Assembly (NCBI RefSeq): GCF_058153355.1
Contig: NZ_CM177019.1
Length of the DNA stretch: 64,000 bases
Reading direction: 5' to 3' (one strand)
Below, one piece after another: positions 1 to 16,614 of this stretch (the first letter of the stretch is position 1; every line of letters begins with the position of its first letter). The notes beneath the pieces are model-generated. The model was not told the DNA's origin and did no database searches. It worked only from the letters and a program-made list of their open reading frames with translations. The translations under genes and the position numbers were made by a program.

Positions 1-509
1 GATATCACCGTCTCAGCTCCTGTATAAGCAAGGACAGCAGATTTTCATTCACTGCCCCGTTCAACCGAAGGGTGCCGTTTCTGAACGTAATCTCACAGGA
101 GATGCTGTGTATTTCCGGTGTTACTGACGGTCTTGCGGTCAGTGGCTCATTAGCCGGAGCAGTTGGGAGTTGGGCATCAATAGTGACAGGAATTAACTGA
201 GATTCTCTGCCTGATTCTGATGATGGCAATTTTATCTTCCCCTGCCGCCATTTCTGACGCCATTTGAACAACAGATTGGCATTAATACCATTGTCCAGGG
301 CCAGTCTGGAAATTGAAACACCTGGCTGGAATGATGCTTCTATGAGTCGTTGTTTGAATTCAGGAGGATAATTCAGGCACCCTTTAGGCCTTCCCGGAGA
401 GGCATTTTTTTGTATATCTGACATTTTTATCACCCACTATTAATTTAGTGGTGGATACTTTGTCCAAAGCATCGGGAATTTGCCAGACGGTCCTGATAAG
501 ACGCTTACG
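1..509 (-). mobile_element. IS66-family insertion sequence, partial (continues beyond window start); putative terminal inverted repeat ends near 509
   Basis: tnpA-like ORF at 5..433; a GTG overlapping the tnpA stop at the window edge begins a second ORF (V-I-S..., tnpB-like overlap arrangement); minus-strand sequence at 503..509 reads GTAAGCG, the GTAA terminus typical of IS66-family inverted repeats. Confidence 0.4.
5..433 (-). CDS. IS66-family transposase accessory protein TnpA (orf1-like, HTH)
   Basis: 142-aa ORF; motif PEFKQRLIEASFQPGVSISRLALDNGINANLLFKWRQKWRQG matches the HTH_Tnp_1 pattern of IS66 orf1 proteins. Confidence 0.55.
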   Translation of the reverse strand: MIKMSDIQKNASPGRPKGCLNYPPEFKQRLIEASFQPGVSISRLALDNGINANLLFKWRQKWRQGKIKLPSSESGRESQLIPVTIDAQLPTAPANEPLTARPSVTPEIHSISCEITFRNGTLRLNGAVNENLLSLLIQELRR

Positions 510-1244
510 CTAATGACGCTTATTGTCACGCAGAAAAATGAATTGAATTTATTCAGGAAAAAGCATGGTGCTCGTGTCCAGGGGGATGGTTTTTTTGCCC
601 GCTGTCTGTGGTCTGTAACTACATCAACGCAGGGTATAAGAGCTCATCAACCTGATGTCCACGTAGATACCAGCGTTCTGGATAAATTTAACAAACGAGT
701 CGAGGAATTACTTGAACAAACGCTTGCCGGAACCACTCCCAGCGTTCTGCGCTTTTCTGTGGAAGCGGAACATCGCTTTGCTCAATATCAGAATGAAATT
801 GAGCAAAGAATATTAACAGAGAAAGGAGGGCATGAAGCACTGCCGGGAATTTTATCAAAGCTACCTGAGAATGCGGTAAGGCTGGCAGCATTAATGCACT
901 TTTTTTATGAATTTAAGGGTGATGAGATTGATGTAGCAACACTAAACTATATTTTTATGATTATGGAATATTATTACCAACAAGCAGTCAATATTTTGAC
1001 TGCCAGCCTGAGTTCCGATGAGGAGGACGCTAAAAGACTCTGGGAGTGGTTAATGACAGGCCATTTCTCGACGTCTACCTCAGTCGCGAAGTCAGAGATA
1101 AGACGTTATGCGCCCTACCAGCTGCGTGATGTAGTCCGCTATAACAAAGCGTTAAAATATCTTGAGGATATTGGTAGGATATATATAAAAAAGTACAAAA
1201 ACGGTAACGGTACTGTCAGTCAAGTGATTGATATCAATCGTTAA
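480..1244 (+). CDS. hypothetical protein, probably N-terminally truncated by the IS66-like element (possibly a DUF3987/YfjI-like C-terminal fragment)
   Basis: 254-aa ORF whose first codons lie inside the putative IS terminus; no recognisable catalytic motif. Confidence 0.3.
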   Translation: MPDGPDKTLTLMTLIVTQKNELNLFRKKHGARVQGDGFFARCLWSVTTSTQGIRAHQPDVHVDTSVLDKFNKRVEELLEQTLAGTTPSVLRFSVEAEHRFAQYQNEIEQRILTEKGGHEALPGILSKLPENAVRLAALMHFFYEFKGDEIDVATLNYIFMIMEYYYQQAVNILTASLSSDEEDAKRLWEWLMTGHFSTSTSVAKSEIRRYAPYQLRDVVRYNKALKYLEDIGRIYIKKYKNGNGTVSQVIDINR

Positions 1245-1301
1245 TGTAAGATATGCATAACTACTCCTCTGCTTTTCCTGCTCCGAAGAGCAGAAATCGC
1301 A

Positions 1302-1311
1302 GGGGGGGGGG
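1302..1311. repeat. G10 homopolymer tract in an intergenic region
   Basis: direct read: a followed by ten g at 1302..1311. Confidence 0.9.
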
Positions 1312-1508
1312 ATTGCCTGAAAATTTTCCTGCATGAAAAGCACACTTTGTATCCGTATAGGAAAAACCAGACGACAACAGTGTAAACCTTACGGTTAACA
1401 TTTTAACCCAGGTCTGACGACTGTCAGGTTCGTGCTGATGCTTTTTATTTTCTGTGAAGCAGAATGCTTTGCTGAATGACATTTTGAGTTTCTGTATTAC
1501 AGGAGTGA

Positions 1509-1790
1509 TTGATGATTAGGTGCCACCTGAACAGACTGATGGGTGAACGCAGATTAAAGGTTGCCGATGTGGTCCGCGATACCGGTCTTCCGCGTAGCAC
1601 TGTCACAGCGCTCTGGAAAGATAACGCCACCCGGATTGAGTTGCCAGTGCTAAGCATTCTCTGTCATTATTTTAATTGTGATGTCAGTGAGTTACTGGAG
1701 TTTACTTCTGATGAAAGTCACGTTGAGTTATCTCGTCCAGGAAAAGGTTTAAATAATTTTTCACATCGTGTCTGGTTTATGCGTAAATAA
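1509..1790 (+). CDS. small XRE/Cro-like helix-turn-helix protein
   Basis: 93-aa ORF; LKVADVVRDTGLPRSTVTALW ... DVSELLEF resembles XRE-family HTH. Confidence 0.4.
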   Translation: MMIRCHLNRLMGERRLKVADVVRDTGLPRSTVTALWKDNATRIELPVLSILCHYFNCDVSELLEFTSDESHVELSRPGKGLNNFSHRVWFMRK

Positions 1791-1886
1791 GACAAAATCA
1801 TTAGTGGGTTGTATTTTAATGTTAATGATTTTGTCATTATTAATTTTAGATTTGTTGCTTTTTACCAAAGTTTTGTTTATTCATAG

Positions 1887-2606
1887 CTACCATTTTAAAT
1901 AATTACAAGCAGCAGTGTCTGCTCTATATGAACAGTTTATTTTAGCTGCTTCGTAGCCGATTAAACCTATAATGGGGTTATTGTTCTCATTGTCGTTGTA
2001 AATATCTTTTAGGAGGTTATCTCCTTGTTGGCTGGCCCAGCTCTGAGAGTCATTATTAAAATCATAATAATATTTTGCTGAGAGCAGTTGGACGGGTTGC
2101 TCGGTATCTGGCAAAACGCTCCAGATAATAATTTGCTTAACTCTGATGATTTCATTTTCAGCCTGTTTTTTAGCTGCGCTTAAACCTTCTTTCAATTTTG
2201 AATTGTCTGGTTCTTTCTTAAAACAATAAGGATCACTTCCATTGGCGACACAGGCCTCATTGTATTGGTCTATAGAGCGCTTTGCGCTTTCTATCAAACT
2301 GGCGTAGCCATTAGCAAACCGAGTCATTTCCCTTTTCCAAATGCTATTTGTTGCAGATGCCGACATATCACACGTATAAGTAACAGTCTGGTGTCCTTGT
2401 TCATCGGTTCCATCTTCCCATTTAAACAATTCACATCGCTGGCGATGCTCTAATGCAGTCCCAAGGGTTCTGGTTGAGTCTATATTTGATAATACCTGTG
2501 ATTTTATAATTTCCTGATTGTCTGAAGCGGATACATTATCACAGCCAGTAAGAATAAATATTGAGCAACTGATAAACAATCCAATAAGTACTTTTCTTTT
2601 AGACAT
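1887..2606 (-). CDS. hypothetical lipoprotein
   Basis: 239-aa ORF; N-terminal signal peptide with lipobox LTGC. Confidence 0.5.
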   Translation of the reverse strand: MSKRKVLIGLFISCSIFILTGCDNVSASDNQEIIKSQVLSNIDSTRTLGTALEHRQRCELFKWEDGTDEQGHQTVTYTCDMSASATNSIWKREMTRFANGYASLIESAKRSIDQYNEACVANGSDPYCFKKEPDNSKLKEGLSAAKKQAENEIIRVKQIIIWSVLPDTEQPVQLLSAKYYYDFNNDSQSWASQQGDNLLKDIYNDNENNNPIIGLIGYEAAKINCSYRADTAACNYLKW

Positions 2607-2682
2607 GAGTGATTCCTTTTTAAGTTTTGGTAAATTACGTGACCTTGACTAAATCAGGTCTGATAAGATGGTTAATCTGGTT

Positions 2683-3153
2683 TTAATGAATGAAGGGCAT
2701 ATGTTCGATGCCTGTATAAAGTAAATTGCTCCTGGCATTGATCGTATTGGTCAGACAGGCGTGACTTTCAATTTCTTTACCCATAGAGTTCATGACACTG
2801 ATATGAGCATCAGGCTGACCTTTGTACTCTTCATAAGTGATAGCCATAGCGCCTTCTATATTCTCTCCAGTTCCTCGCAATACAAAGACTCTATTGTCAG
2901 TAACATCATTTGCGGTGATGGACTGCTGCGCTTGACCTGAATGAGTATTCAGTTTGATGACTACGCTGCCTTTATCAGAACTTTTATCCTGTGATTTATA
3001 GGTAATATATACGATGTCTTTTTTATGACTCAGTGTCATAACCCCACCAGTATCAAGTGTGCATTTTAGATCCCAGTTTTCCTGACCAGCCAGTGAAGAA
3101 CTGCTTAACAACATTAGTATATAAAAAGATGCTTTTATTTTTACAATATTCAT
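2683..3153 (-). CDS. hypothetical secreted protein
   Basis: 156-aa ORF with hydrophobic N-terminal signal sequence ending ...SSLAGQ. Confidence 0.45.
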   Translation of the reverse strand: MNIVKIKASFYILMLLSSSSLAGQENWDLKCTLDTGGVMTLSHKKDIVYITYKSQDKSSDKGSVVIKLNTHSGQAQQSITANDVTDNRVFVLRGTGENIEGAMAITYEEYKGQPDAHISVMNSMGKEIESHACLTNTINARSNLLYTGIEHMPFIH

Positions 3154-3189
3154 ATAGCCTGCTGATTAAGTGGGGCGACTATTCTTAAT

Positions 3190-3945
3190 TTATGAAGCTG
3201 CTCCTCTATTAATACTCTTTATCTGATGAGCAATATTTTTATATGAACGATGATTAGCCGAGTTCATTACATCATGGATATAAGGAAAATGAGGTAAGGA
3301 TGAGATGAACCGCTCACCCGCAGTGAGATGGCAGATGTCATCTCTGCGCACAAAACTCTCTGTGGTTAACTTCACCTGGATGATGCTGGCTACTGGAATA
3401 ACCCTGATTATTTCGGCCTGACAGGCAACTAAATACCATTTTCCTTCCGTGTGAATAAGACGATAAGGTTCAAAGACCGCGTGAGAATCATTGCCAGTCA
3501 GCAAATGAATACAGTTTTGTTGACAGATCGCCTGTATCAGCCGCTGAAAACATTCTGATGATACAACCGAGTCAGAATGCGATGAAGACCAGATAAGGCA
3601 GGGAGAATACGACGTTTCACCCGTGAGGTAATGCATCAACCTGCGATCAGGTGACGGAAATAATTGAGAGATTCCGGTGTTACGCATAAACGCCAGAACA
3701 TCTAATGAACTGTCTGTAAAGCGTTTCCCGTCAAGTCGCCAGCGCCCATTCTCACTAACGATATTAAGGTGGAGTAATCGCTGGTGGAAATCTCGCTGTA
3801 GCGTTCGTTCAGATACTCCAAACTCTTCTGCCAGGTTTTTTAGGTCAAGAGACTCTCCTGACAGTAACCGGCTAATAATCTGTGTCAGCCTGATGGCAAA
3901 CCGGTCATAACGAGTCGATGTAGTGTTCATCAGAAAAACGTCCAT
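3190..3945 (-). CDS. WYL-domain transcriptional regulator (YfjR/BrxR-like); start codon uncertain (ORF extends to 4068)
   Basis: motif EPYRLIHTEGKWYLVACQ (WYL signature) plus N-terminal HTH-like region LKNLAEEFGVSERTLQRD. Confidence 0.55.
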   Translation of the reverse strand: MDVFLMNTTSTRYDRFAIRLTQIISRLLSGESLDLKNLAEEFGVSERTLQRDFHQRLLHLNIVSENGRWRLDGKRFTDSSLDVLAFMRNTGISQLFPSPDRRLMHYLTGETSYSPCLIWSSSHSDSVVSSECFQRLIQAICQQNCIHLLTGNDSHAVFEPYRLIHTEGKWYLVACQAEIIRVIPVASIIQVKLTTESFVRRDDICHLTAGERFISSLPHFPYIHDVMNSANHRSYKNIAHQIKSINRGAAS

Positions 3946-4166
3946 GGATAACTTACTGTTTTTAATGATGTTATTATGAATCATGAGCACGACAGGATAT
4001 GTCGTAGTAACGGGAGGAATAGAGAAAAAACGTCCAGACAAATAACTAAGTAATATCCTGATTAACAATAACTATTTTTTCCAGAGACAGAACTGAAGCA
4101 GGTCGCGACATATCCTGTCGCTGAAACTCATAATTTTCAGGTGGCTTAACTCAGTGGGTAGATGTA

Positions 4167-5051
4167 TTAGAAAAACCAGTGCCATATTGCGGTAGCTGCA
4201 TTCTCCAGCCCTTCTCTGAGCACTCCCAACCCGTTGCGTATCATGTTGGGGAGAGGTATGGCCTCCAGAATCCTGCTCAATAATTCTCCCAACAAATCCG
4301 CGAAATCCTTTCGGGCCTTCGTCTCCGATTCTTTGGTGCGATGTTCTTTCCTGATCTGGCGAAAGACGCCACTGGTAGCCTCTGGTGGCAGGGCAAAAAT
4401 CATTGTTTCAACTATACGAGACATGTTGTAACCGGTTTTTGCTGAAACAGCATGCACCGGGTAAGGGGTAAAGAACTGGCGGGAAACGGCAGCACTTCTC
4501 GCTGTGAGCGTCATGAGTTGCTTCACTGAAGGAGATCCTTTTTCACGATCCCATTCCAGTGATGGCTCGGCTTTGTCAGCCTGGTTGATAACAAAAACAA
4601 TGCTGTCTGTCGATACGCCACAATCCAGTAGAAAACGGTGGAATTCTTCGTCTGTGGTACAGGCGCGGTCATCGGCTTTCATCACCCAGAGAATGAGATC
4701 CAGCTTCGGTAACTGTTCCTGATACATCTGGCGATATATCTCATCATGCTTCAGCGATTCACCTGCGCCCGGCAGATCGATCAGCGTCAGGCTGCGTCCT
4801 CCAGCGTTCAGGGTAAAATGCAAAGGTTTACGTGTGCAGCCTTCTGCATGGCTGACTGGGCTGAGAGGATGTTCAAAAAGAGCATTGCAAAGCGAGGATT
4901 TTCCGGCACCTGTTTTGCCCATGATGCCAATCACGGGTTCGTAATGAATACTCTGGCGTATATGCTCCAGAACCAAATCGGAGATATGTTCAGGAAGAAT
5001 GGATAAAGGTTGCTTCAGGACATTAATGCCCCGTTCAAAGGAATCAGACAT
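4167..5051 (-). CDS. YfjP/YkfA-family GTPase (P-loop GTP-binding protein)
   Basis: G1 motif GKTGAGKSS, DLPG (G3-like) and NQADK (G4 NKxD-like); GGAGG RBS upstream of the ATG at 5051; ORF extends to 5105. Confidence 0.6.
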   Translation of the reverse strand: MSDSFERGINVLKQPLSILPEHISDLVLEHIRQSIHYEPVIGIMGKTGAGKSSLCNALFEHPLSPVSHAEGCTRKPLHFTLNAGGRSLTLIDLPGAGESLKHDEIYRQMYQEQLPKLDLILWVMKADDRACTTDEEFHRFLLDCGVSTDSIVFVINQADKAEPSLEWDREKGSPSVKQLMTLTARSAAVSRQFFTPYPVHAVSAKTGYNMSRIVETMIFALPPEATSGVFRQIRKEHRTKESETKARKDFADLLGELLSRILEAIPLPNMIRNGLGVLREGLENAATAIWHWFF

Positions 5052-5215
5052 GTAGCCTCCGGAATGAAAAAATTCGATACAGCAACTTCGCTGCAATGTA
5101 TTCATTGCGGTAATACAGGTCTGTTTTTTTTTGCATTCGAATTACGGGGAGGAATGTGGTTTTGTGGAGCAAACCGGGGGCATTGCCCCGGTTCACTGAT
5201 ATGGTGAAATGATAT

Positions 5216-5455
5216 CTAACGTCGCATTACCCATTCATTCAGTTCTGACTCCAGCCAGCCAACGGATTGCCTTCCCAAGCGTTTTTGTTTTGGAAATGTT
5301 CCATCGTAGCGTGGCGATTTTGGATTAAGCCAGTCGTATATGGTTGAGCGTGAAATTCCCATTTTTTTCATTACATCTTTTAGCCTCAAGATCCTCGGTG
5401 AATCAGGAATATTTGCGTAACTGGATGTATGTAAGGAGGGAGGGTTCTGTAACAT
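5216..5455 (-). CDS. alpA: AlpA-family phage regulatory protein (HTH)
   Basis: 79-aa ORF; ISRSTIYDWLNPKSPRYDGTFPK matches the AlpA signature of P4/CP4-57-type elements. Confidence 0.65.
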   Translation of the reverse strand: MLQNPPSLHTSSYANIPDSPRILRLKDVMKKMGISRSTIYDWLNPKSPRYDGTFPKQKRLGRQSVGWLESELNEWVMRR

Positions 5456-5568
5456 CTAGGCTTCCTTAGTATGAGTTTGTTCGGGTGGGTCCATATTGCC
5501 AACCACGCTGGGGCTGTCATACACTGGAAGTAACATTAAAATAAAATCACTTTAGGGATTTACTTTTC

Positions 5569-6450
5569 ATGAAGGATGTGGGTGCGAATTTTTTTGATGA
5601 TTTCTATCTGCAAGTTTGTACCGCTTGTGAGGACAAACTTCTTGAGCTGGAATGGAAACTTGAAGTCGAAAAAAAGGAGAGCAACCAAGATGTTCTGCGC
5701 ACTTACAGGCAAAGAGCCTATGATAAAATTGAAGAATTTAAAATTATTGAGTATTCAAAAATACAATGTCAATATTTTGTAGATATGACTAATAGCGACA
5801 ATATACGCTACTCACAAGAGTTTATAAATGTTGATGGAATAATGGTTGAGAAACCTTTTATTTATAAGGAAACATATGCAGAATATCGGATTGAAATTCG
5901 AGGAAAAATGGACGGGTATAAACTGACAGGATTAGCAAGACTATATGATGCACATTATGAATATATATATCTATCTATGGCTTTAGAAGATTTTTACTGG
6001 GCGCAGTTCCAATATTCATTGGGCAATAAAAAAGAAAGTTGTAAGTTTCTTCTTGATGCTTATTCTTATATGAATGTCTGTATTTCGCGAGATGATAACC
6101 GAGACTCACCGAGTTTTCATCGATTAAGAAGTGGTTTTGATAAAGTATGCAGAAGAGCGCGCTCAAGCGCTGGAGGGAAAAATAAACTTGCAGAACTTGA
6201 ATATATTAAAGATACAGTTGTTATCTTACTTGAAGATATTCCTTCACATAGCGACTGGAAAAATAAACGTCAACTTCTTGAATATTTAATGCCCTATATT
6301 TGTAATAATGATAAAAAGGTCAATCCAGATAAATGGATAAATGATACAGGCGATAGAGAGGAAACTATCCGCCGCAGACTTAATAAATGGTTTACAGGTG
6401 ATCTAAAAGTAGAGATTGATAAAGTCCTAAAGAACAATACTAACAATTAA
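5569..6450 (+). CDS. hypothetical protein, AT-rich orphan
   Basis: 293-aa ORF, strongly AT-rich codon usage, transcribed divergently from alpA; no recognisable motif. Confidence 0.5.
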   Translation: MKDVGANFFDDFYLQVCTACEDKLLELEWKLEVEKKESNQDVLRTYRQRAYDKIEEFKIIEYSKIQCQYFVDMTNSDNIRYSQEFINVDGIMVEKPFIYKETYAEYRIEIRGKMDGYKLTGLARLYDAHYEYIYLSMALEDFYWAQFQYSLGNKKESCKFLLDAYSYMNVCISRDDNRDSPSFHRLRSGFDKVCRRARSSAGGKNKLAELEYIKDTVVILLEDIPSHSDWKNKRQLLEYLMPYICNNDKKVNPDKWINDTGDREETIRRRLNKWFTGDLKVEIDKVLKNNTNN

Positions 6451-6681
6451 TATTATTATGGTTTTGATATTTTTATGTCTATCAGGAGGGCTACTATACG
6501 ATCAGTCTTGATGGGTTTGAAATTACATCGCTATGAAAATACCCCACATAAATCTATTGGAAAACCAATCATTGTTAATATGACTATTGTTATGATGACT
6601 GTTGTAATTGTGTCTACACGAGAAATTGAATGAAATTTATAGGTTTGAAGTAGCCTTAGTGGTAGTCGAAAATAATTATGT

Positions 6682-6713
6682 AAATGGGCCTGCATTTTGC
6701 AAGAAGGCCCATT
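6682..6713. terminator. hairpin between convergent genes (aaatgggcc ... ggcccattt)
   Basis: 9-bp inverted repeat read directly. Confidence 0.3.
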
Positions 6714-6717
6714 TACG

Positions 6718-7047
6718 TCAGGGGTAAATTATATATCCCATAATCGCACAGATTAACCGGTAATCACTCACGTAGAAGATTTCCGGATTCTCAGTGCTTT
6801 GTTCACCGATAAAGAAGACTTGAGCTCTCTCTTTAGCTTTTTTATTTACTGCTTCTTTTGCTTCTTCCTGCACAGTTTCAAGCTCATTCAAAAGCATAGT
6901 CTTTTTGGCTTTTGACCAGTCTCCCCACTCAATGTGTAGTTTATAGCTACGCGAGGGCTTAAACTTACCAGATTCGTCTTTTGCCCATTCTCCCGAGAGC
7001 GGAATGACAATTCGGTTTTCGTCTTGCTCAAATTTCTGCCATAACAA
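6718..7047 (-). CDS. hypothetical protein (109 aa)
   Basis: ORF co-directional with and downstream of the STAND gene; no motif recognised. Confidence 0.4.
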   Translation of the reverse strand: MLWQKFEQDENRIVIPLSGEWAKDESGKFKPSRSYKLHIEWGDWSKAKKTMLLNELETVQEEAKEAVNKKAKERAQVFFIGEQSTENPEIFYVSDYRLICAIMGYIIYP

Positions 7048-7094
7048 CTGCGAATAAAAAACTCGGCGCTCAGGGTAGGGTTGAACCGGGTCTT

Positions 7095-7628
7095 TTAGTT
7101 TTTTAACACGGTCATGTAAGTATCGGCATTAATACCTGGGATAATTAATGACATACCACGGTCATACGGGAAGCGAATAAATGCCCTACAAATCTGGCGA
7201 ATAGCATTAACCGGGCGGCGGGATTGCCGCGCTGGAGCATTTCCCTCGCTGGATGCCGATGTTGTAGAACGTATTGGATTGGGTTTGTTGTTGTTACCAG
7301 TAGTGTCAGGATCAACAACGGGTCGATTTTCAATCAGTTTTAATCCTGCAGGCATCAAACCTGGTGCGCTATCTAACATGCGGCGGACGCTTTTCTTCTG
7401 CCCCTGTTTAACCACTGTGCTTTCTGCATCAGCATCGCAATTAATGTGCTCTTTTCCAGGCATTTTATTAAACGAAGGTCTTTTCTTACTTCCTTTTTGC
7501 CAAGCAGAAGGATACATCTCAATCCCACATCCCCAGCATACGTAACTGTTCGTATCTACAACATCAAGTAACCAAAGATCTTCTGCCTCAATAATCTCAC
7601 TGGTATATTTATCACGTGCAGATTCCAT
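7095..7628 (-). CDS. hypothetical protein (177 aa) with a CxxC motif
   Basis: good RBS (aaaggagaaatc then ATG); starts 45 bp after the STAND gene stop; contains C-W-G-C. Confidence 0.5.
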   Translation of the reverse strand: MESARDKYTSEIIEAEDLWLLDVVDTNSYVCWGCGIEMYPSAWQKGSKKRPSFNKMPGKEHINCDADAESTVVKQGQKKSVRRMLDSAPGLMPAGLKLIENRPVVDPDTTGNNNKPNPIRSTTSASSEGNAPARQSRRPVNAIRQICRAFIRFPYDRGMSLIIPGINADTYMTVLKN

Positions 7629-7673
7629 GATTTCTCCTTTAAACAGAATTCCTGTGAAGGCGGCTACTAGCCT

Positions 7674-10600
7674 TCATTCAAACCGTTGTTCCAATGCCTC
7701 ATCTTCCAATCGCTCGCGTTCTTTTTCCTTTTCAACCCAGTTAGTCAGTTTTTTATAAACAGCTCTAGCCGACTTAGAAATGTCTGCACGCTCGTGGGTG
7801 ACCAACCGGCCTATCGCTTCAACCCTGGGTTGCATCACGTTCGCACGACTACCGGACCATGATGAAGGTGCTACGTGTTCGGCAAAGATCTCAAGGACGG
7901 CTCGTGGCTCGGGTGAGGCTTCTAGAAATCTCAGAGCATCATCCTGCAAGCAAATAGGACTTTGCTCCCCGTCTTTTGACCATAGATTAATACCTGAAGC
8001 GACTGAAGCCCAAACCTGAGGGTCTTTAGTGGTCCCGCACCATTCAATCAAAATATCTACATCGATTTTCGCAATAGGAGACTGATGTGAATCATCATGA
8101 TTGATGAAATGCAGCCGCCTCTGTTGTTGATCCTCCGTACCATCAAAAATGCGACTGAGAAATTCTTTTGGCATCCATGCAGCGGTGATACCGATAGCGT
8201 CTTCGAAAGAAAAAATGTAGCCAAAATGCTCATCAACAACAGCAAAGATTGTATTCAGCCATTCTAGCTTTTCAGCCTCGTTGCCATCGAAGCGCAATGT
8301 GGCATCGATAACACGTTCCATTGCATAATCCAGATATCCGCCGAGATCGTTGTGATCTCTTTGGAACCTCTGGATTGCAGCGGATAGTCCAATTGTTCGT
8401 AGCGCAAGACCTAGTGTATCCGTAGCATCTCCTTTATCAGGTAGTTTCATACTCAATGCTTCCAATACTACTTCATCACCATTCGGTTTACTCAGCAGCC
8501 TTTGAGCAAGCTCGAGAACCCTGCTTTCTGGCAAATTAGAGAATTGCTCACCCCACAGAATTGCCCCATACATATGGGGCCGTATGTCAGAGTCATCCAG
8601 AAGCGACATGCAACGATCCAGATCGATTTCAGTAAACTCCTGCCAAGGATGTAGGTTGACTAATTCGAATCGAAGTTCGGAATGTTGTGCGCACTGATCG
8701 AGCAGTTCCTGCGCTAATGCTTTATCGATAGAATTCGTCTCTTCTATGAAACCTCGAATAACAGAAAAATCACTTTGAGATTTATGCTGTAGATTCATTT
8801 GAGTGATAAGTTTCTGCCAATAAACTCGTAGGTCAGGTGCTCCTTTAGCTAAGCCTTTACCGAATTCGACGCGATAGGGCATCCCATCTCGTAAGAATAA
8901 ATTAGGGCCTAACTCATCAAGTTCATGCGTGGATACTGCAAAGTCTTGCCCTAACTGGAACGCTTTTGCGTTAAGTATTTCCTTTATTTTTATGAATTTG
9001 TTAGGCCCCTCACGCTCAAAATCGGCATTCAGCGCCCAAAAATCACGCCCCTTACTGAGTACATAAGCCATAACTGCCGGAACCAAGTCATTAGGCTCCA
9101 ATTCTCGTTCCAATGTCACAAGTCCTTCCGGCAAAGGAGCTAAATCTTCGTTGTCATTTCTTTTGGTATGGGAAAAGTAAATTGTTGAGCGGACCGCTTT
9201 CCAGCCTTCACCCCAAGGACGATGGGCATGTAATTTGCGAGCCGCATCAATTAATTTTGACCTCATTCCTTCCTGACGCCAAATCCAGCGAAATTTATTA
9301 GCTAAGATCAGCCGAGCATCATCTTCAAGTTCGGGAACTCTTGAAGTTGCTAATCTCACCACAATGTCGATGAAGGTGATTAGCCACTCAACAAGCTCAT
9401 CGTAGCTGGGTCGAAATCCATAATCTCTTGGCCGAGCACCAAACTCATTAATCCCGAATCCTGTCCACGGTGGTCCGCCGAGAGCAGTTTCAAGCATTTC
9501 GAGCCCCAGCCTTCTACGTCCGGCCATACTTGAACCAATGCATTCATCCATGACCGCAACACGTTGTTCTAAAGAGGCATGGGTACCGGATAGATAAGGT
9601 TGGAAAAACCTCTTTATCTTATTTCGAGCCGAATCATAATTATTGCTCGCGCTTTCCTGATCTGCGATACGGATTAAGAGCTTAATGCATCGTTCAAAGT
9701 ATTTCGATTCATATGCAAGTAACTGCAACAATTTGATAATTGCTGTTCGTTGTGGGTTGTAGCGTGATTTAAAATGCTCAAAATTAGACGTAACAAGTGT
9801 TTCTTCAATCCGCTCAAGCAAAGCTCCCGGGGCGACTGGAGCGACATAATTCAGAATGCGTGTCGAAACATCATCTAGGTCTATTATTTTTCCAAGCAGC
9901 CCTTCGGGCTGTAACCAAGCTTCAACAATCTCTTTAGCCACAGCATGGCTGTGCAATAGTCCCAACCTGTGCGCGAACGACATCAATAATCGTTGTCGAT
10001 CCGGAGCTTCAAAGGTCGTCCTAAGTTGATCAATCGGAATACTATTAAGTGCAGATGCTGCCAACTTGTTAGCAATGGCATGGGGAAGGATGGCTCTCCA
10101 GTGGGATCTTTTCTGAACAACGTGACGTTCCATCAACTTCGTAACAGTTTTGAATAACTGGATTTTGGGATACCCAGAGAGCGCACCCAATATTTCCAGT
10201 TCATCGGTAGCTGCATCTGAACTAGATATTGAGAACGAATACACCAGTGACAATATTTCAGCTTGCTCCCGTAAATGGCCGTCGGGATGATTACGTTGTT
10301 CAAACAAGCGATTAAACAACTGCGCATCTGAAAGTAGGGCTAAACTCTCACCTTCCTCCACTCTTTCCGCTATAGCCAAAGCCACTCTTGCATTCCCATC
10401 TGCGAACTTTGCAATCCGACGGGCATTATTCTGACCAATAGAAGGGAAGCGACGGATAAGAAGTTGCTCTGCCACCTCTGGACCATCTGTCTCAATGTGG
10501 ATGACCTCAGTTGTCTGTGGTTTGTCATCCCTAATGTCGTACTCGATCGTGATGAGACTTACTTCTTTCCCTGCGGCTGATACTTTGCTGGCAAGCGAAG

Positions 10601-11525
10601 CATGGAGTTCTGATGGGCAATTATCAAGGATCATAATTGCTCGTCGGCCTTCAGCGAGCAGGTTATCAAGCATTGCTGTAGCCGACGGTACTGGCTCATA
10701 GCCAGTATCAACATAAATAGCTACTGTCCGGTCAAGCGCATCTGTTCCAACAGTATCATCAAAGAGCGCCTGAACGATTCGAGTCTTCCCAACACCAGAC
10801 AATCCTGTAATACGAACAGCCTTATTCGTCGAACGGATCAGTGCTCGCATTGGGTTAATTGCTTCATCAATTTTGAGTTTTTGCCCCTTTCCCGATGGTA
10901 AAGTAATGGTTACGCTTGGGGCTGAGATTAAAGTGTCTGTAACACCTTGTGGTGGATTGCTCCAGGCTCCGTAGGGTTGCCAACCGGAATACCCTTGCCC
11001 AAGCTTTGCTTTTACCCACAGCATGACTGATGGATGTTGGCGCAACCATTGGATGAGTTTGGAGCGGTCGTAGAAATCAAGATGAAGATAACTTTCGTTA
11101 GGATCATCTTTTACTGCATCTCTCATCGCTTTGAGACGATTCTTCTTTCCTGACGGCGAGCAATCATCACCCAGGCTGACAATGATGTAACTGCCTTGCT
11201 TTCTGGCTTGTTCAGAAATGATGGGAGAAAGTGCTTTTCCGGTGCCAATTTCCCTCTCGATTGCAGCCTTAGGCATCTTATGTTTCTTTGCCTGAAAGAC
11301 CGTATCAGGTCTTACAAGAAAGCCTGCTTTCAGTTGATCAACTGGAACCTGAACATGGATGTCAATTCCTCCGTCAGGGGCTGTAATTGAACCAGACCAA
11401 TTTACACATGCTGGGCTATGGCCGTGCATTGCCACTTCAGCTTCTGCTAGCCGAGCGATCAGCTCTTCCAACTGGATATCGGAGAGCCGAAGTAATTCGT
11501 CCTTTTCAATGTCAAAGATTGCCAC
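7674..11525 (-). CDS. Mrr-like (PD-(D/E)xK) nuclease / STAND P-loop NTPase / long helical C-terminal domain protein; Avs-like antiphage candidate
   Basis: 1283-aa ORF; N-terminal DGGID (residues 51-55) ... QAK (78-80) resembles the Mrr catalytic core; Walker A GLSGVGKT encoded at 10782..10805; Walker B-like AIMILDN; GNARVALAIA resembles the GxP motif of STAND NTPases. Confidence 0.7.
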   Translation of the reverse strand: MAIFDIEKDELLRLSDIQLEELIARLAEAEVAMHGHSPACVNWSGSITAPDGGIDIHVQVPVDQLKAGFLVRPDTVFQAKKHKMPKAAIEREIGTGKALSPIISEQARKQGSYIIVSLGDDCSPSGKKNRLKAMRDAVKDDPNESYLHLDFYDRSKLIQWLRQHPSVMLWVKAKLGQGYSGWQPYGAWSNPPQGVTDTLISAPSVTITLPSGKGQKLKIDEAINPMRALIRSTNKAVRITGLSGVGKTRIVQALFDDTVGTDALDRTVAIYVDTGYEPVPSATAMLDNLLAEGRRAIMILDNCPSELHASLASKVSAAGKEVSLITIEYDIRDDKPQTTEVIHIETDGPEVAEQLLIRRFPSIGQNNARRIAKFADGNARVALAIAERVEEGESLALLSDAQLFNRLFEQRNHPDGHLREQAEILSLVYSFSISSSDAATDELEILGALSGYPKIQLFKTVTKLMERHVVQKRSHWRAILPHAIANKLAASALNSIPIDQLRTTFEAPDRQRLLMSFAHRLGLLHSHAVAKEIVEAWLQPEGLLGKIIDLDDVSTRILNYVAPVAPGALLERIEETLVTSNFEHFKSRYNPQRTAIIKLLQLLAYESKYFERCIKLLIRIADQESASNNYDSARNKIKRFFQPYLSGTHASLEQRVAVMDECIGSSMAGRRRLGLEMLETALGGPPWTGFGINEFGARPRDYGFRPSYDELVEWLITFIDIVVRLATSRVPELEDDARLILANKFRWIWRQEGMRSKLIDAARKLHAHRPWGEGWKAVRSTIYFSHTKRNDNEDLAPLPEGLVTLERELEPNDLVPAVMAYVLSKGRDFWALNADFEREGPNKFIKIKEILNAKAFQLGQDFAVSTHELDELGPNLFLRDGMPYRVEFGKGLAKGAPDLRVYWQKLITQMNLQHKSQSDFSVIRGFIEETNSIDKALAQELLDQCAQHSELRFELVNLHPWQEFTEIDLDRCMSLLDDSDIRPHMYGAILWGEQFSNLPESRVLELAQRLLSKPNGDEVVLEALSMKLPDKGDATDTLGLALRTIGLSAAIQRFQRDHNDLGGYLDYAMERVIDATLRFDGNEAEKLEWLNTIFAVVDEHFGYIFSFEDAIGITAAWMPKEFLSRIFDGTEDQQQRRLHFINHDDSHQSPIAKIDVDILIEWCGTTKDPQVWASVASGINLWSKDGEQSPICLQDDALRFLEASPEPRAVLEIFAEHVAPSSWSGSRANVMQPRVEAIGRLVTHERADISKSARAVYKKLTNWVEKEKERERLEDEALEQRFE

Positions 11526-11972
11526 ATCCTAACCCTATTAAAGATACTGCGACTATATAAAAAGTTACCCTTATTCTAACCAATGACAGAAGGAATGTCC
11601 CTTAAACCGTTGCAATTAAAACCATTCTCATCAAGTAGTTAAGATTTTCTTACTCAGCACTATGATGTTGATCTTACCCACTTTGCGTCAAACTATTAGT
11701 ATGTATAAAGCACATTGCTGGCCTGATTAAGAAATGGATTGATATGTGAGTTAATGTCATTTATGAGCTTAAAGCTATTTTTAATCCCCTTTGCTTTACA
11801 ACTCTTTATATTATTTCATTCTTATTTACACCAATATTTATTGGTATGATGGTTTAATTTAATTCATTTTTGTTTTTTTGTTTGAAGCACATTGAAAGGA
11901 TATTATTATTTTCTCCTTCATGTTGAAAACAATTTAATTGGGCGGGTTTGGTTCGATATTATTAATATCTTT

Positions 11973-12000
11973 TTCAAAGAAATTATTTATATGGTATAAT
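11973..12000 (+). promoter_or_regulatory. putative sigma70 promoter with extended -10 (ttcaaa ... tggtataat)
   Basis: -35-like ttcaaa at 11973..11978, 16-bp spacer, TGnTATAAT at 11992..12000, within a long AT-rich tract upstream of the nuclease-helicase gene. Confidence 0.3.
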
Positions 12001-12032
12001 GCAATAAAATCGTATTGAGGTAAGAGGGTACT

Positions 12033-12227
12033 ATGAGTGGATCTTTTGATTTCTTAGCTGGTTCTTTGGCTCTTGAAAATAAACCTTTCCATATGCAGGT
12101 TGCAGAGCTAATAAAAAATAAGTTTCGTCATTGTGAGGGATATATTGGCTATAAGCTTGCAACTTTGGGACGGGCATCGGACTCCGATGTTCCAGATTTT
12201 ATCATTATACAAAAGAACATGGCATAA
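12033..12227 (+). pseudogene. 5' portion of nuclease-helicase gene (NERD/PD-(D/E)xK-like N-terminus), separated from the helicase frame by an apparent -1 frameshift
   Basis: 64-aa ORF with RBS gaggtaagaggg; ends ...SDVPDFIIIQKNMA; adding one A to the A4 run at 12211..12214 gives DFIIIQKEHGIILVDMVESK, continuous with the helicase ORF. Confidence 0.45.
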
Positions 12228-12238
12228 TTTTAGTTGAC

Positions 12239-14248
12239 ATGGTTGAAAGTAAGGTTTCTCGTGCGGATGAGGTGCAGGGGAATGAGGTTTGGTATTATGA
12301 GCATGGAGGTTCGAGTGTAGCAAGGAATTTTATTGTCGAGTTGTATGAGGAGGAGGTAAGAAGTAGATTAAAAAACGATGCAAATTTCTACAACAGAAGA
12401 AAAAAAACATGCACAGTTCCGATTACTAGCGCTGTTATTTTTTGTAAAAATAATAATAGTGAGATAGACAATTTCTATCAAGAGTATGCTGATTATGAAA
12501 GTTCAGCTATTGAATATGGCGAGATTGAGAATTGGTTAGATAGCGTTGAAGAAGGGTTCAATTGCGATTCTAAAGTTCTGGGGCGAATTTTTTCATTGTT
12601 AGAGGGGACGTTTATATATGAAAATAAAAAAATTCTCGATGAAGAACCACCCCTTAACACTGTGAATGATTATATCAAAAAATCTCTAAATATAACATTT
12701 AATCAAGATCACTCACAACGTATTGCTTCAATGCAACTAACCCCGGGCCCTCAGAGAATTCGTGGCTTGGCCGGAACAGGTAAGACGATAGTTCTTTCAT
12801 TAAAAGCTGCGATAACGCACAAAAAATTTCCAGATTATAAAATATTATATTTATTTAATACACAAAGCTTATATCAAAATGTGCAGAGTTCAATCGCCAG
12901 ATACTATACTTTAGAAGCCAAAAAAGCGCCAGATTTTGAATCGAATCTAAATGTCTTCCATGCGTGGGGTGGTAGGCAGAAACCGGGACTGTATTCATAT
13001 ATTTGCCAACAGTATGGATTAACTCCACTAACATTAGGAGATGTACGTGGAGCAAGTGATGCCTTAGCTGTCATATATGCAGAACTTCTCAAAAAAATCG
13101 GTGGTGATATAAAGCCTGAATATGATCTTATTTTAATAGATGAAGCCCAAGATTTTCCTAAAGAGTTGTTTGAAGTGGTCTTTAAACTAGCAAAGGGCAA
13201 ACCTCATGAGAAAAGGATCGTTTGGGCGTATGATGAATTCCAGTCATTGAAAGACACTCAAATTAAAGGTCCATCTGAGCTATTTGGTTTGGCCAAAGAT
13301 GGCACCCCAAATATGAGTGATGATGTTTTAGATGGATTCTATCCTGGTGACATAAAAAAAGATATTGTTTTATCCAATTGCTATAGGACTCCTCGTCCTG
13401 CTCTTATGACTGCTCACGGAGTAGCATTAGGACTTTATACTAATAAGCCGAATGAAATGTTTTATAACCATGATGAATGGAAAGCTATTGGCTATAAAGT
13501 TTTAAATCCTCAGACAAAAATCATTGCAAAAGGCAATGATGTGCAAATAGAGAGACCTAATGAAAATAGTCTAAATCTGTTGGAAGGAATTATGACAGAG
13601 CAGGGTAAGAGGGCCCTTAACCTTATCCAGACTAAGGTGGAAAATGATCGGGAAAGTCAATATGAATATATTGCAAGTAACATCAAACGTTTAATTGATG
13701 AGGAAAATGTCTCGCCTGAAGAAATAGTCATAATTAATTTGAAGTCCTCTAGTAACAAAGATGAGATGCTACGCATTCAATTCATCTTAAATAATTACGG
13801 TATTCACTCTGTAATTCCCGGTTACGTTGAAAGCTCAGATGTCTTTAAACCCAAGGGGTTCGTTACAATCACAACCCCTTTCAGGGCTAAAGGGAATGAA
13901 GCTAATATTGTATTTATTTTAAATAGCCAGTTAGTTGTTAATGATTTTTCATTAAGGATGCGTAATGCATTTTTTGTAGCAGTAACTCGAACAAGAGGAT
14001 GGTGTTATATTGTTGGTTATGGAGAAAAAATGCAAATGCTTGTGGACGAAATTTCAGGAATCAAAAGAGATTTCCCTATATTTAATTTCATTTGTCCTGA
14101 CCCTGATGATGTCAAAGCACGAAAAAGTTATCTCCACAAATCAGACTCTGAGATCAATGAGATGCAAAGAGTACTGGATTTAGTTAATAATAACGAAGAG
14201 TTAAGACGACTGCTACAGGAGCAGCTCATTGATAAGAAAGGAGATTAA
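12239..14248 (+). CDS. SF1 helicase (UvrD/RecD-like), probable C-terminal body of a nuclease-helicase fusion
   Basis: 669-aa ORF; Walker A GLAGTGKT at 12764..12787; Walker B LILIDEAQDF; FVAVTRTRGW motif VI-like. Confidence 0.7.
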   Translation: MVESKVSRADEVQGNEVWYYEHGGSSVARNFIVELYEEEVRSRLKNDANFYNRRKKTCTVPITSAVIFCKNNNSEIDNFYQEYADYESSAIEYGEIENWLDSVEEGFNCDSKVLGRIFSLLEGTFIYENKKILDEEPPLNTVNDYIKKSLNITFNQDHSQRIASMQLTPGPQRIRGLAGTGKTIVLSLKAAITHKKFPDYKILYLFNTQSLYQNVQSSIARYYTLEAKKAPDFESNLNVFHAWGGRQKPGLYSYICQQYGLTPLTLGDVRGASDALAVIYAELLKKIGGDIKPEYDLILIDEAQDFPKELFEVVFKLAKGKPHEKRIVWAYDEFQSLKDTQIKGPSELFGLAKDGTPNMSDDVLDGFYPGDIKKDIVLSNCYRTPRPALMTAHGVALGLYTNKPNEMFYNHDEWKAIGYKVLNPQTKIIAKGNDVQIERPNENSLNLLEGIMTEQGKRALNLIQTKVENDRESQYEYIASNIKRLIDEENVSPEEIVIINLKSSSNKDEMLRIQFILNNYGIHSVIPGYVESSDVFKPKGFVTITTPFRAKGNEANIVFILNSQLVVNDFSLRMRNAFFVAVTRTRGWCYIVGYGEKMQMLVDEISGIKRDFPIFNFICPDPDDVKARKSYLHKSDSEINEMQRVLDLVNNNEELRRLLQEQLIDKKGD

Positions 14249-14250
14249 AA

Positions 14251-14922
14251 TTGAATTTCTCATTAGTGCAGCAAAGCTTAAACCATGTCGAAGCACTTTT
14301 AAAACCTGTAACTCAACAAAAATTAATAGAGTTTAAAGAAAGAGAGAAGGTCATAAGTTGGACAAATAGGAAGCCAGGAATTTACAATGAAGTCTACTAT
14401 CCTATTGAATATCAATGTGTAATTGATGCAAGGCAGTACTCATTATTGCTTCGAGATGGCGATTTTTTTCAATTTTTTTATGAGTTTGATGCGAAAACTG
14501 GCAATCTGAAGAAAGCTAAGTTGGCTTTCTATCCCTCACCAATTGATTGTAGAAATTCGTTGGATGATCTCAATGAAGCAGCTGAATTTGCTTTTGATCA
14601 TAATGAAGAACTCTATAATCATCTTGATAATTGGATTTCGCTATTGGAAATAAAAAACTATTTTCCAGCAAATACATCTCAAGTTAGATTTGATTATGAT
14701 AGTACGGTTACTACACATGAGAAAGCACATCTGCAGTTTAGTAGTGTAAATAAACTTAGACTTCCGGCTGACTTTTTTCCTTTGCCATATGCATTTGTAT
14801 TAATGGTTTCTGATCTTATTAATGGATGCTCAAAGGTAGATGCTAGACATATAAGCTTTACTAAGAGAAACAGCCTAAGATCAAATGTTTCTAATAGAAT
14901 CATAACCTTGAAATCACAGTGA
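14251..14922 (+). CDS. hypothetical protein, helicase-coupled partner (223 aa)
   Basis: TTG start 3 bp after the helicase stop, AGGAG RBS 7 nt upstream; AT-rich; no motif recognised. Confidence 0.5.
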   Translation: MNFSLVQQSLNHVEALLKPVTQQKLIEFKEREKVISWTNRKPGIYNEVYYPIEYQCVIDARQYSLLLRDGDFFQFFYEFDAKTGNLKKAKLAFYPSPIDCRNSLDDLNEAAEFAFDHNEELYNHLDNWISLLEIKNYFPANTSQVRFDYDSTVTTHEKAHLQFSSVNKLRLPADFFPLPYAFVLMVSDLINGCSKVDARHISFTKRNSLRSNVSNRIITLKSQ

Positions 14923-14928
14923 ATTAAC

Positions 14929-14962
14929 AAGCCTCTTTTATAAGGATATAAGAGGCTTGTTA
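14929..14962. terminator. bidirectional hairpin terminator (aacaagcctctt ... aagaggcttgtt)
   Basis: perfect 12-bp inverted repeat between the convergent partner gene and integrase. Confidence 0.45.
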
Positions 14963-15372
14963 TTATTTCGCTAAATCTGATCACTGTCGAGAATTGATTG
15001 ATTTTTTGTGATTATTTATTCCATTCTGAGTTCATTGCCGATTTTATATGTATGTATTTTGTATCGGCTTATCTTGGCTTATTAAGTCTAGCATCACACA
15101 ATGCTTTTCAGGAAATCATCTTACCTATTAACCATATTATTACCGGCCCAACATTTCTCGCATTTACAGCTGGTAGCTCCTGTGTGTAAACGCTATTAAT
15201 CTCATACTCATTGGTTTAATATTAACTTTGAACTTCTGGAGTGCAGATCACCAATCCTAATATTACTACTAAATAGCTGCGCCTAATAACGCGACACCCG
15301 CCGTTTACTGTCTGGTGGCTTAACCTGCAAGGGCTGGCTGAAAGTGGGACACTATTCCGCGCAGCTATTTAG

Positions 15373-16614
15373 TCACCCAACTAGCTTCATTCCTTTTATC
15401 CCACCTTCAATCATGCTTCCACGATCCGCTGCCATCACAAAATTTGCCCACCATTGCATCATCGGGCGACGCTGTTCCAGGTAATCGCTGCGGTTATAAG
15501 CACGACGAACCTCATTCTTATCCACATGGGCCAATGCTGCCTCAATGACATCAGGCGGAAAGCCTTGTTCATTAAGAGCCGTACTGGCAATTGATCTCAG
15601 ACCATGCGAAACAAGCACACCACCAAAACCTGCGCGTTTTAGTGAGGCGTTAACAGTCTGACTGTTCATTGGCTGGTTGGGCTTGATACGGCTGGGAAAG
15701 ATAAATTCTCGGTTGCCGCTTAGCGGTTTCATCATCTCCAGCACAGCTATTGCTTCATCTGACAATGGAACAGTATGATCGCGGTTCATTTTCATGCGTG
15801 CTGCAGGAATCTTCCACTCTCGCGCTTCTATGTCTACCTCTTCCCAGCGAGCTTCAGCCGCTTCGGCAGGGCGGGTAATAGTAAGAAGTTGCCACATGAA
15901 CAGGCAGCGTGTGGAAAGGCTAATGCTGGCTGTTCGCATTGTCTGCATCAATTGAGGTAGCTGATCCGGTCGAATGCTGGGCATGTTCTTTTTCTGAGGC
16001 TTCTCGAAGGCTTTACCGATATTAACGCTGGGAACAGCATCAATCAGCCCTGTGTTTTGGGCATAGATCATGACCTCATTAATGCGCTGACACAGGCGAC
16101 GAACGGTTTCCAGTGCTCCTCTGGCCTGAACTGGTTGGACGGCCTGAACCAGTGTGTGTGCTTTAATATCTGTAACGCTAATGTCGCCAATTGCAGGAAA
16201 GACATCTCTCTCAAGAGAGCGCCAGATATCCTCTGCGTAGTCTTCGGTCACACTGGCTTTCTTCACATTCCACCAACGTTCAGCCACGAGCTGGAAAGTA
16301 TTGGTTTTAGCTTCCAGCGAACTGCGAAGTTGTTCTTGTTGATGTTCCTGGGGATCAATTTGTTTCGCCAGAAGAGAGCGGGACTCTGCCCGATAGTTTC
16401 GGGCATCGGCAAGGGTAACTGACGGGTAGGGGCCTATGCTCTTCTTCGCACGTTTCTTAGTGACAGGGCGAATGTAGCGAAACTGCCAGATTTTACTTCC
16501 GCTGGATTTGATGAGTAGCTCAAGGCCATCACCATCATAGAGAACGTAGTCCGCTTCTTTGGGTTTGGCGGATTCGATTTCTTTAACGGATAGAGGTTTG
16601 GTTTGTCTTGCCAT
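15373..16614 (-). CDS. intA: P4-type tyrosine integrase (IntA-like) next to ssrA
   Basis: 413-aa ORF; C-terminal catalytic region with HGLRS ... EAALAH ... RAY pattern; position immediately 5' of the tmRNA 3' end. Confidence 0.85.
   Translation of the reverse strand: MARQTKPLSVKEIESAKPKEADYVLYDGDGLELLIKSSGSKIWQFRYIRPVTKKRAKKSIGPYPSVTLADARNYRAESRSLLAKQIDPQEHQQEQLRSSLEAKTNTFQLVAERWWNVKKASVTEDYAEDIWRSLERDVFPAIGDISVTDIKAHTLVQAVQPVQARGALETVRRLCQRINEVMIYAQNTGLIDAVPSVNIGKAFEKPQKKNMPSIRPDQLPQLMQTMRTASISLSTRCLFMWQLLTITRPAEAAEARWEEVDIEAREWKIPAARMKMNRDHTVPLSDEAIAVLEMMKPLSGNREFIFPSRIKPNQPMNSQTVNASLKRAGFGGVLVSHGLRSIASTALNEQGFPPDVIEAALAHVDKNEVRRAYNRSDYLEQRRPMMQWWANFVMAADRGSMIEGGIKGMKLVG

What the first reader, a model, noticed from the sequence alone, without database searches (positions are those of the whole stretch)
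1..1244. IS66-family element at the window edge appears to have truncated a neighbouring island gene
Seen: an IS66-type tnpA (5..433, minus) with an overlapping GTG start of a tnpB-like frame at the window edge, and a GTAAGCG terminus at 503..509 on the minus strand. The 254-aa ORF at 480..1244 starts inside this putative terminus, so its N-terminus is probably IS-derived and the gene truncated. Inference only for the truncation.
Basis: partly seen in the sequence, partly recalled or inferred. Interest (0 to 1): 0.35.

Follow-up and report, generated by a model that had tools for sequence, protein, structure and literature searches.

The report
IS66 insertion truncating island helicase gene
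The left edge of the window is the end of an ordinary IS66-family insertion sequence that sits inside a yfjI (DUF3987 helicase-like) gene of a CP4-57-type genomic island, leaving only the gene's last 244 of 470 codons. This is a routine gene knock-out by a mobile element.

Summary
Window 1..508 (minus strand) is 100% identical to the first 508 nt of a complete 2469-bp IS66-family element found elsewhere. It also holds tnpA (139 aa from ATG 424; 142 aa from GTG 433) and the first 8 nt of tnpB (GTGA overlap).

From base 509 the sequence is 99.9% identical to nt 678..1413 of a 1413-nt yfjI/DUF3987 gene. That gene is intact (470 aa) in six complete E. coli genomes with the same gene neighbourhood. 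Residues 11-254 of the 254-aa ORF equal YfjI residues 227-470 (243/244). Its first nine and two-thirds codons come from the IS. The lost half holds the Walker A-like and Walker B-like motifs, so the remnant is most likely a dead pseudogene.

Complete copies of the same IS have a matching right repeat and 8-bp target duplications. The window's own left junction lies outside the window, and I could not recover it. Simple insertion (predicted duplication GCTAATGA) and an IS-bordered deletion or rearrangement therefore both remain possible.

This is an ordinary, already known kind of event. Interest is low.

The parts
1..508 (-). Left 508 nt of a 2469-bp IS66-family insertion sequence (IRL, tnpA, first 8 nt of tnpB). 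The rest of the element lies beyond the window edge.
   Evidence: 100% identity over 508 nt to positions 1..508 of the complete copy L004:5017-7485. 93-96% identity to tnpA/tnpB-annotated IS66 copies in about 14 E. coli records.
482..508 (-). Left terminal inverted repeat, GTAAGCGTCTTATCAGGACCGTCTGGC, with the outermost base at 508.
   Evidence: The element boundary is fixed by 8-bp target duplications around complete copies (L004 CACCGGAC, L013 GAATAAGG). 19 of the first 27 bases match the right repeat GTAAGCGGCTCGCCAGAACCGTATTGA. GTAAGCG is located at 502..508 (-).
5..424 (-). tnpA, the IS66 accessory protein (139 aa from ATG 424). The maximal ORF from GTG 433 gives 142 aa.
   Evidence: NCBIfam NF047595 IS66_ISRel24_TnpA, 88.8 bits against a cut-off of 74. 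Pfam HTH_Tnp_1, E=6.8e-11. The exact 139-aa protein is encoded next to tnpB and tnpC in L004.
1..8 (-). First 8 nt of tnpB (GTG at 8..6), overlapping the tnpA stop by 4 nt (GTGA).
   Evidence: Sequence. tnpB starts at IS position 501 in L004 (5517) with the same overlap. The same arrangement is annotated in L002, L003 and L013.
509..516 (+). GCTAATGA, the 8 bp of yfjI directly next to the IS tip. This is the predicted copy of the target-site duplication if the event was a simple insertion.
   Evidence: Inference from the 8-bp duplications seen around other copies. The second copy would lie outside the window and was not observed.
509..1244 (+). 3' remnant of yfjI (DUF3987, SF6/MCM-like helicase family). 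It consists of nt 678..1413 of the 1413-nt gene: the last base of codon 226, codons 227-470 and the stop.
   Evidence: 99.86% identity over 736 nt to L001:6001-6736. 243/244 aa identical to residues 227-470. Pfam DUF3987 matches profile positions 197-363 only.
480..1244 (+). Mechanical 254-aa chimeric ORF. Codons 1-9 and two bases of codon 10 come from the IS end; the rest is yfjI.
   Evidence: The same-lineage draft contig has the gene called from ATG 513 (243 aa).
509..17181 (.). Context: the retained part of a CP4-57-type integrative island. It runs from the yfjI remnant through HTH, WYL regulator, GTPase, AlpA, PD-Lambda-4 and helicase+DUF2290 genes to the integrase (15373..16614, -) and the tmRNA gene ssrA (16819..17181, -).
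   Evidence: tmRNA. Integrase domains. Gene order matches annotated islands in E. coli R32_14_1F and FEX669. Core genes recN and nadK follow.

Best explanation
An IS66-family insertion sequence transposed into codon 226 of yfjI. yfjI is the DUF3987 helicase-like gene of a CP4-57-type island integrated at ssrA. In complete copies the IS is 2469 bp, encodes tnpA, tnpB and the DDE transposase tnpC, has GTAAGCG-type inverted repeats and makes 8-bp target duplications.

The IS points leftward, and only its first 508 nt are inside the window. To its right lie the last 244 codons of yfjI. These happen to be in frame with 29 nt of the IS end, which creates a spurious 254-aa ORF. The remnant lacks the N-terminal half with the Walker A-like (aa 73-80) and Walker B-like (aa 182-188) motifs. 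It should therefore have no ATPase or helicase activity, and any replication function of the island that depends on YfjI is lost.

Shown: the IS identity and boundary, the yfjI identity, and the exact breakpoint. Inferred: that the 5' half of yfjI plus a GCTAATGA duplication lies directly beyond the other IS end, and that the remnant is non-functional.
For: - IS side: 100% identity of window 1..508 to a complete IS copy. That copy encodes TnpA, TnpB and TnpC (Pfam; NCBIfam IS66_TnpB and transpos_IS66). It has an IRL/IRR pair and 8-bp duplications in two of three complete copies.
- Gene side: window 509..1244 equals nt 678..1413 of an intact 1413-nt yfjI. Protein residues 227-470 are 243/244 identical.
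- The intact gene has identical neighbours in six complete genomes.
- The three-way alignment shows the switch of homology at 508/509.
- A draft assembly 99.99% identical to window 511..11245 has its contig end at that junction, as expected where a multi-copy IS breaks a short-read assembly.
- DUF3987 proteins are SF6/MCM-like helicases with Walker A/B motifs and a C-terminal wHTH. One has been shown to be a 5'-3' helicase (PMC4889955, PMC11724360).
- Classic IS66 members have tnpA/tnpB/tnpC and GTAAGCG-type repeats (PMC12888890).
Against: - The other IS end and the 5' 677 nt of yfjI are not in the window.
- They could not be found in any searchable collection. The junction 39-mer is absent from genome contigs and metagenome contigs. 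The predicted N-terminal fusion and partial proteins are not on record.
- One of three complete reference copies (L014) lacks a target duplication, so rearranged copies of this IS do exist.
- Non-function of the remnant rests on motif positions read by eye from the sequence, not on an assay.
Confidence: 0.65

Rival explanations
1. The IS marks a larger IS-mediated rearrangement (adjacent deletion, or recombination or inversion between two IS copies). In that case the 5' half of yfjI and the leftward island genes (yfjJ-like, DUF932, radC, cbeA/cbtA, ypjA) are deleted or moved, and do not sit just beyond the IS.
For: - The 5' part of yfjI is nowhere in the 64-kb window.
- One complete copy of this IS (L014) has no target duplication, which shows post-insertion rearrangement at such copies.
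- ISCro1-related elements are multi-copy in E. coli, with up to 33 places per genome, so they offer substrates for recombination.
- The predicted simple-insertion fusion protein is not on record.
Against: - No positive evidence. The absence of the 5' part from the window is expected anyway, because the IS alone extends about 1.96 kb beyond the window edge.
- The negative look-ups are uninformative, because the source genome itself is not in those collections.
Confidence: 0.3
2. The 254-aa (or 243-aa) ORF is a functional shortened protein. It would be a stand-alone C-terminal wHTH-containing fragment of YfjI expressed from the IS end, for example as a regulator or a dominant-negative inhibitor.
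For: - The frame stays open for 254 codons with only one amino-acid change from the intact gene.
- DUF3987 proteins carry a C-terminal wHTH (PMC4889955).
Against: - Near-identity to the intact gene (1 mismatch in 736 nt) points to a recent event with no time for decay, so an open frame says nothing about selection.
- No sigma-70-like promoter was found on the + strand between 1 and 600.
- Only two short contigs in the large assembly collection carry this product.
- The island holds another fresh inactivation, the PD-Lambda-4_B frameshift.
Confidence: 0.04
3. There is no real IS boundary here. The GTAAGCG motif and the ORF overlap are coincidental, and the 254-aa ORF is a complete gene.
For: The 7-mer GTAAGCG occurs at chance frequency in the window (7 found, 6.5 expected).
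Against: - 508 nt of 100% identity to a complete IS whose ends are defined by target duplications.
- Homology to the intact yfjI starts exactly at 509.
- The ORF covers only residues 227-470 of its homologues.
Confidence: 0.01

Closest known systems
IS66 family insertion sequences, ISCro1 group (classic three-ORF tnpA-tnpB-tnpC type; IS679/IS66 of Han et al. 2001, J Bacteriol 183:4296, cited from my own knowledge and from the reference list seen)
   Same: - tnpA with an HTH, overlapping tnpB by GTGA.
- A DDE TnpC in the complete reference copy.
- Inverted repeats starting with GTAAGCG.
- 8-bp target duplications.
- The tnpB-tnpC-IRR part is about 97% identical at the nucleotide level to copies annotated as ISCro1 family.
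   Different: - The first ~500 nt (IRL plus a short 139-aa TnpA) are not ISCro1-like. ISCro1-type TnpA is 216 aa and only 36% identical.
- The short-tnpA module is rare. About 14 of the 20 matching E. coli records carry it, all at 93-96% identity, and full-length copies are seen on E. albertii plasmids and one plasmid contig.
- I could not check ISfinder, so the element's registered name is unknown.
yfjI of the E. coli K-12 cryptic prophage/island CP4-57 (YfjI family; Pfam DUF3987, SF6/MCM-like helicases of mobile elements)
   Same: - NCBI names the intact homologues 'YfjI family protein'.
- The intact protein matches DUF3987 along the whole profile.
- The island sits at ssrA and carries integrase, AlpA, GTPase, WYL regulator, YfjJ-like, RadC and CbtA/CbeA genes. 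This matches CP4-57 as I know it from K-12.
   Different: - Only the C-terminal 244 of 470 residues are present here.
- The cargo differs from K-12 CP4-57 (PD-Lambda-4 and helicase+DUF2290).
- No function has been shown for YfjI itself. Helicase activity has been shown only for a distant PriCT-DUF3987 protein (PMC11724360).

Membership tests
IS66 family (classic type) | Accessory gene tnpA (HTH protein) as the first ORF | tested here: met
   NCBIfam NF047595 IS66_ISRel24_TnpA, 88.8 bits against a cut-off of 74. Pfam HTH_Tnp_1.
IS66 family (classic type) | tnpB directly downstream, overlapping tnpA | tested here: inconclusive
   Only 8 nt (the GTG start with a GTGA overlap) lie inside the window. 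The copy that is 100% identical over the shared 508 nt has a 115-aa TnpB (NF033819, 127.8 bits).
IS66 family (classic type) | DDE transposase TnpC (DDE_Tnp_IS66) | not testable with these tools
   It lies outside the window. It is present in the reference copy L004 (523 aa; NF033517, 479 bits), but the window's own copy cannot be read.
IS66 family (classic type) | Terminal inverted repeats beginning GTAAGCG | tested here: met
   IRL at 508..482 (-). The IRL/IRR pair in complete copies shares 19 of 27 bases. The IRR of the window's own copy was not seen. A literature example is the ISPsk01 repeat GTAAGCGTCCGG... (PMC12888890).
IS66 family (classic type) | 8-bp target-site duplication | not testable with these tools
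   The window holds only one junction (the candidate is GCTAATGA at 509..516). Duplications of 8 bp are seen at L004 and L013 but not at L014. The source genome was not found.
YfjI family / DUF3987 | Match to Pfam PF13148 above the gathering score | tested here: met
   96.7 bits against a cut-off of 27, but only profile positions 197-363 of 364. The intact homologue scores 254.8 bits over positions 2-363.
YfjI family / DUF3987 | [quoted passage not shown] | tested here: not met
   The remnant starts at residue 227. The Walker-like motifs AESGERKT (73-80) and LISDEGG (182-188) of the intact protein are absent. It is a gene fragment, not a functional family member.

The most novel reading that the evidence does not exclude
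The IS may be a modular recombinant: a rare IRL+short-tnpA module joined exactly at the tnpA/tnpB boundary to an ISCro1-type tnpB-tnpC-IRR. It is still active, as shown by the fresh 100%-identical copies on a plasmid and in this chromosome, and the target duplications at two other sites. That would imply that IS66 TnpA modules and left ends can be swapped without loss of transposition, which bears on the poorly understood roles of TnpA and TnpB. A second possibility is that the IS-fused C-terminal YfjI fragment is expressed and acts on island replication.
Probability: 0.1. Interest if true: 0.3.

Novelty: already known. Interest (0 to 1): 0.1.

Why it matters
It matters mainly for annotation. 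The 254-aa ORF should be recorded as an IS-disrupted yfjI pseudogene, not as a gene, and the window edge should be flagged as lying inside an IS.

Biologically it is one more example of IS-driven decay of a CP4-57-type island. The putative replicative helicase is knocked out, and in the same island PD-Lambda-4_B is frameshifted. This suggests the element is being immobilised and eroded in this lineage. No open question becomes testable through it.

Tried and rejected
- **Recovering the left junction.** The 39-mer across the 508/509 junction was searched in genome contigs and metagenome contigs and gave no hits.
- **Exact-protein look-ups for the left fragment.** I tried the predicted simple-insertion fusion product (264 aa) and N-terminal partial products of 228, 227 and 226 aa. 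None is on record.
- **Look-up of the 254-aa ORF**: not on record. The 243-aa version from ATG 513 is found, but only on two 10-20 kb draft contigs that end at the junction.
- **Look-up of the upstream neighbour YfjJ**: returned only loci with an intact yfjI.
- **Homologue search with the N-terminal 228 aa**: returned only unrelated partial or truncated YfjI clusters. None carries an IS-derived tail.
- **PDB sequence search with the intact YfjI**: no hit.
- **Reading Han et al. 2001** (PMC95320): not held.
- **The GTAAGCG 7-mer as evidence:** rejected on its own, because it occurs at chance frequency.
- **An IS-end outward promoter for the remnant:** none was found by the consensus scan.

Full report
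**What is in the sequence**

The window starts inside a mobile element. On the minus strand, ORF 5..433 (142 aa from GTG; 139 aa from ATG 424) is an IS66-type TnpA. It scores 88.8 bits against NCBIfam IS66_ISRel24_TnpA (cut-off 74) and matches Pfam HTH_Tnp_1. Its stop codon (TGA at 7..5) overlaps a GTG at 8..6. Annotated IS66 copies show the same GTGA tnpA/tnpB overlap. The 7-mer alone means nothing, since 7 copies occur in the window against 6.5 expected.

**The IS boundary**

- The exact 139-aa TnpA is encoded on a plasmid contig (L004, GCA_047897835.1). There it is followed by TnpB (115 aa) and a 523-aa DDE transposase TnpC.
- That element runs from 5017 to 7485 (2469 bp). It starts with GTAAGCGTCTTATCAGGACCGTCTGGC and ends with the complement of GTAAGCGGCTCGCCAGAACCGTATTGA. 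It is flanked by the 8-bp direct repeat CACCGGAC.
- A 95.8%-identical complete copy on an Escherichia albertii plasmid (L013) is flanked by GAATAAGG. A third copy (L014) has no duplication.
- Window 1..508 is 100% identical to positions 1..508 of the L004 element. The IS tip is therefore base 508.

**The gene on the other side**

- A megablast against complete E. coli genomes splits the first 1400 bases cleanly. Bases 1..505-512 hit IS66 tnpA/tnpB regions. Bases 509..1400 hit 'YfjI family protein' genes in six chromosomes, at up to 99.7% identity.
- In strain R32_14_1F the gene is 1413 nt, or 470 aa. Window 509..1244 equals its nt 678..1413 at 99.86% identity.
- A three-way alignment shows the switch of homology at 508/509.
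- At protein level, residues 11-254 of the 254-aa ORF equal YfjI residues 227-470, with 243 of 244 identical.
- The ORF's first nine codons and two bases of the tenth come from the IS. The upstream in-frame stop (441..443) is also inside the IS.
- The intact protein matches Pfam DUF3987 over the whole profile (2-363 of 364). The remnant matches only positions 197-363.
- The missing half contains AESGERKT (73-80) and LISDEGG (182-188), which I read as the Walker A-like and Walker B-like motifs (this is my inference from the sequence).
- DUF3987 proteins are regarded as SF6/MCM-like replicative helicases of mobile elements, with Walker motifs and a C-terminal wHTH. A PriCT-DUF3987 protein has been shown to be a 5'-3' helicase (PMC4889955 and PMC11724360).
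- The remnant is therefore most likely inactive.

**Context**

The gene belongs to a CP4-57-type island. To the right lie:
- an HTH gene, two hypothetical genes and a WYL/HTH regulator;
- a YfjP-like GTPase and an AlpA-family gene;
- a PD-Lambda-4 pair and a UvrD-like helicase with DUF2290;
- a tyrosine integrase (15373..16614) and the tmRNA gene ssrA (16819..17181);
- then core genes such as recN and nadK.

The same gene order with an intact yfjI occurs in R32_14_1F and FEX669. To the left of yfjI those strains have a YfjJ-like gene, DUF932, radC, DUF987, cbeA/cbtA and ypjA.

**What could not be settled**

This cannot be done for the window's own copy.
- The 5' 677 nt of yfjI are not elsewhere in the window.
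- The junction 39-mer is absent from the species-representative genomes and from the metagenome collection.
- No complete E. coli RefSeq genome carries the junction.
- A draft assembly (GCA_015332025.1, L006) is 99.99% identical to window 511..11245, and its contig ends right at the junction. This fits a repeated IS at that point, but nothing further can be read from it.
- Exact look-ups of the predicted fusion protein and of N-terminal partial products failed. A homologue search with the N-terminal half gave only unrelated fragments.

I therefore rate simple insertion (predicted duplication GCTAATGA, 509..516) at about two in three. An IS-bordered deletion or rearrangement takes about three in ten, and the two minor rivals (a functional shortened protein; no real IS boundary) take the rest.

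**Comparison with known elements**

The element meets the IS66-family features that can be tested here: TnpA, the tnpA/tnpB overlap and a GTAAGCG-type repeat. Literature support for three ORFs and GTAAGCG repeats comes from PMC12888890. Support for 8-bp duplications and the three-ORF organisation comes from Han et al. 2001, cited from my own knowledge and seen in the reference list. TnpC, the right repeat and the duplication are seen only in the reference copies.

One detail goes beyond the finding. Positions 502..2469 of the element (tnpB, tnpC, IRR) are about 97% identical to ISCro1-family copies present in thousands of E. coli records. The first ~500 nt (IRL plus the short tnpA) are rare, and the TnpA is only 36% identical to the 216-aa ISCro1 TnpA. 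The element thus looks like a mosaic joined at the tnpA/tnpB boundary. I could not consult ISfinder to see whether it is already named.

**Verdict**

This is an ordinary IS66-family disruption of an island gene, a known kind of event of low interest. Its main value is correct annotation: the ORF is a yfjI pseudogene fragment, and the window edge lies inside an IS.

Noticed in passing
window 6717..7628 (-), with 7674..11525 (-): The island carries a PD-Lambda-4 defence pair. The A gene (1283 aa) is intact. The B gene has a 1-nt deletion relative to E. coli R32_14_1F and stops after 177 of 303 aa. The same lesion is in the near-identical draft L006. This is a second fresh inactivation in the same island.
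   Followed up: partly
window 12239..14922 (+): A UvrD-like helicase (669 aa) is followed directly by a DUF2290 protein (223 aa). Both match PADLOC 'Helicase' and 'DUF2290' candidate-defence models. They lie next to the island integrase.
   Followed up: no
window 1302..1311: A poly-G tract lies in the yfjI-HTH intergenic region. It is G10 in the window, G9 in the otherwise identical draft L006, and G8 in R32_14_1F, L008 and L009. It is the only difference between the window and L006 over 10.7 kb. It could be slipped-strand variation or a homopolymer sequencing error.
   Followed up: partly
window 1..508; L004:5017-7485; L013; L014: The IS is a mosaic. The IRL plus the short 139-aa tnpA are rare (93-96% matches in about 14 of the 20 matching E. 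coli records) and the TnpA is only 36% identical at protein level to the ISCro1 TnpA. tnpB-tnpC-IRR is about 97% identical to the very common ISCro1-family copies, and the break falls at the tnpA/tnpB boundary.
   Followed up: partly
L004:7516..7550: Thirty bases beyond the right end of the complete IS copy on the plasmid contig there is a second IS66-type terminus (GTAAGCGTACAGCCTGAACCGTCTGG). It is followed by IS3-family genes and looks like the remnant of another IS66 element.
   Followed up: no
window 3190..4068 (-): The mechanical ORF of the WYL/HTH regulator is 292 aa here. The homologous genes are annotated or called at 240-258 aa in other strains. This is probably only an upstream alternative start in the ORF listing.
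   Followed up: no
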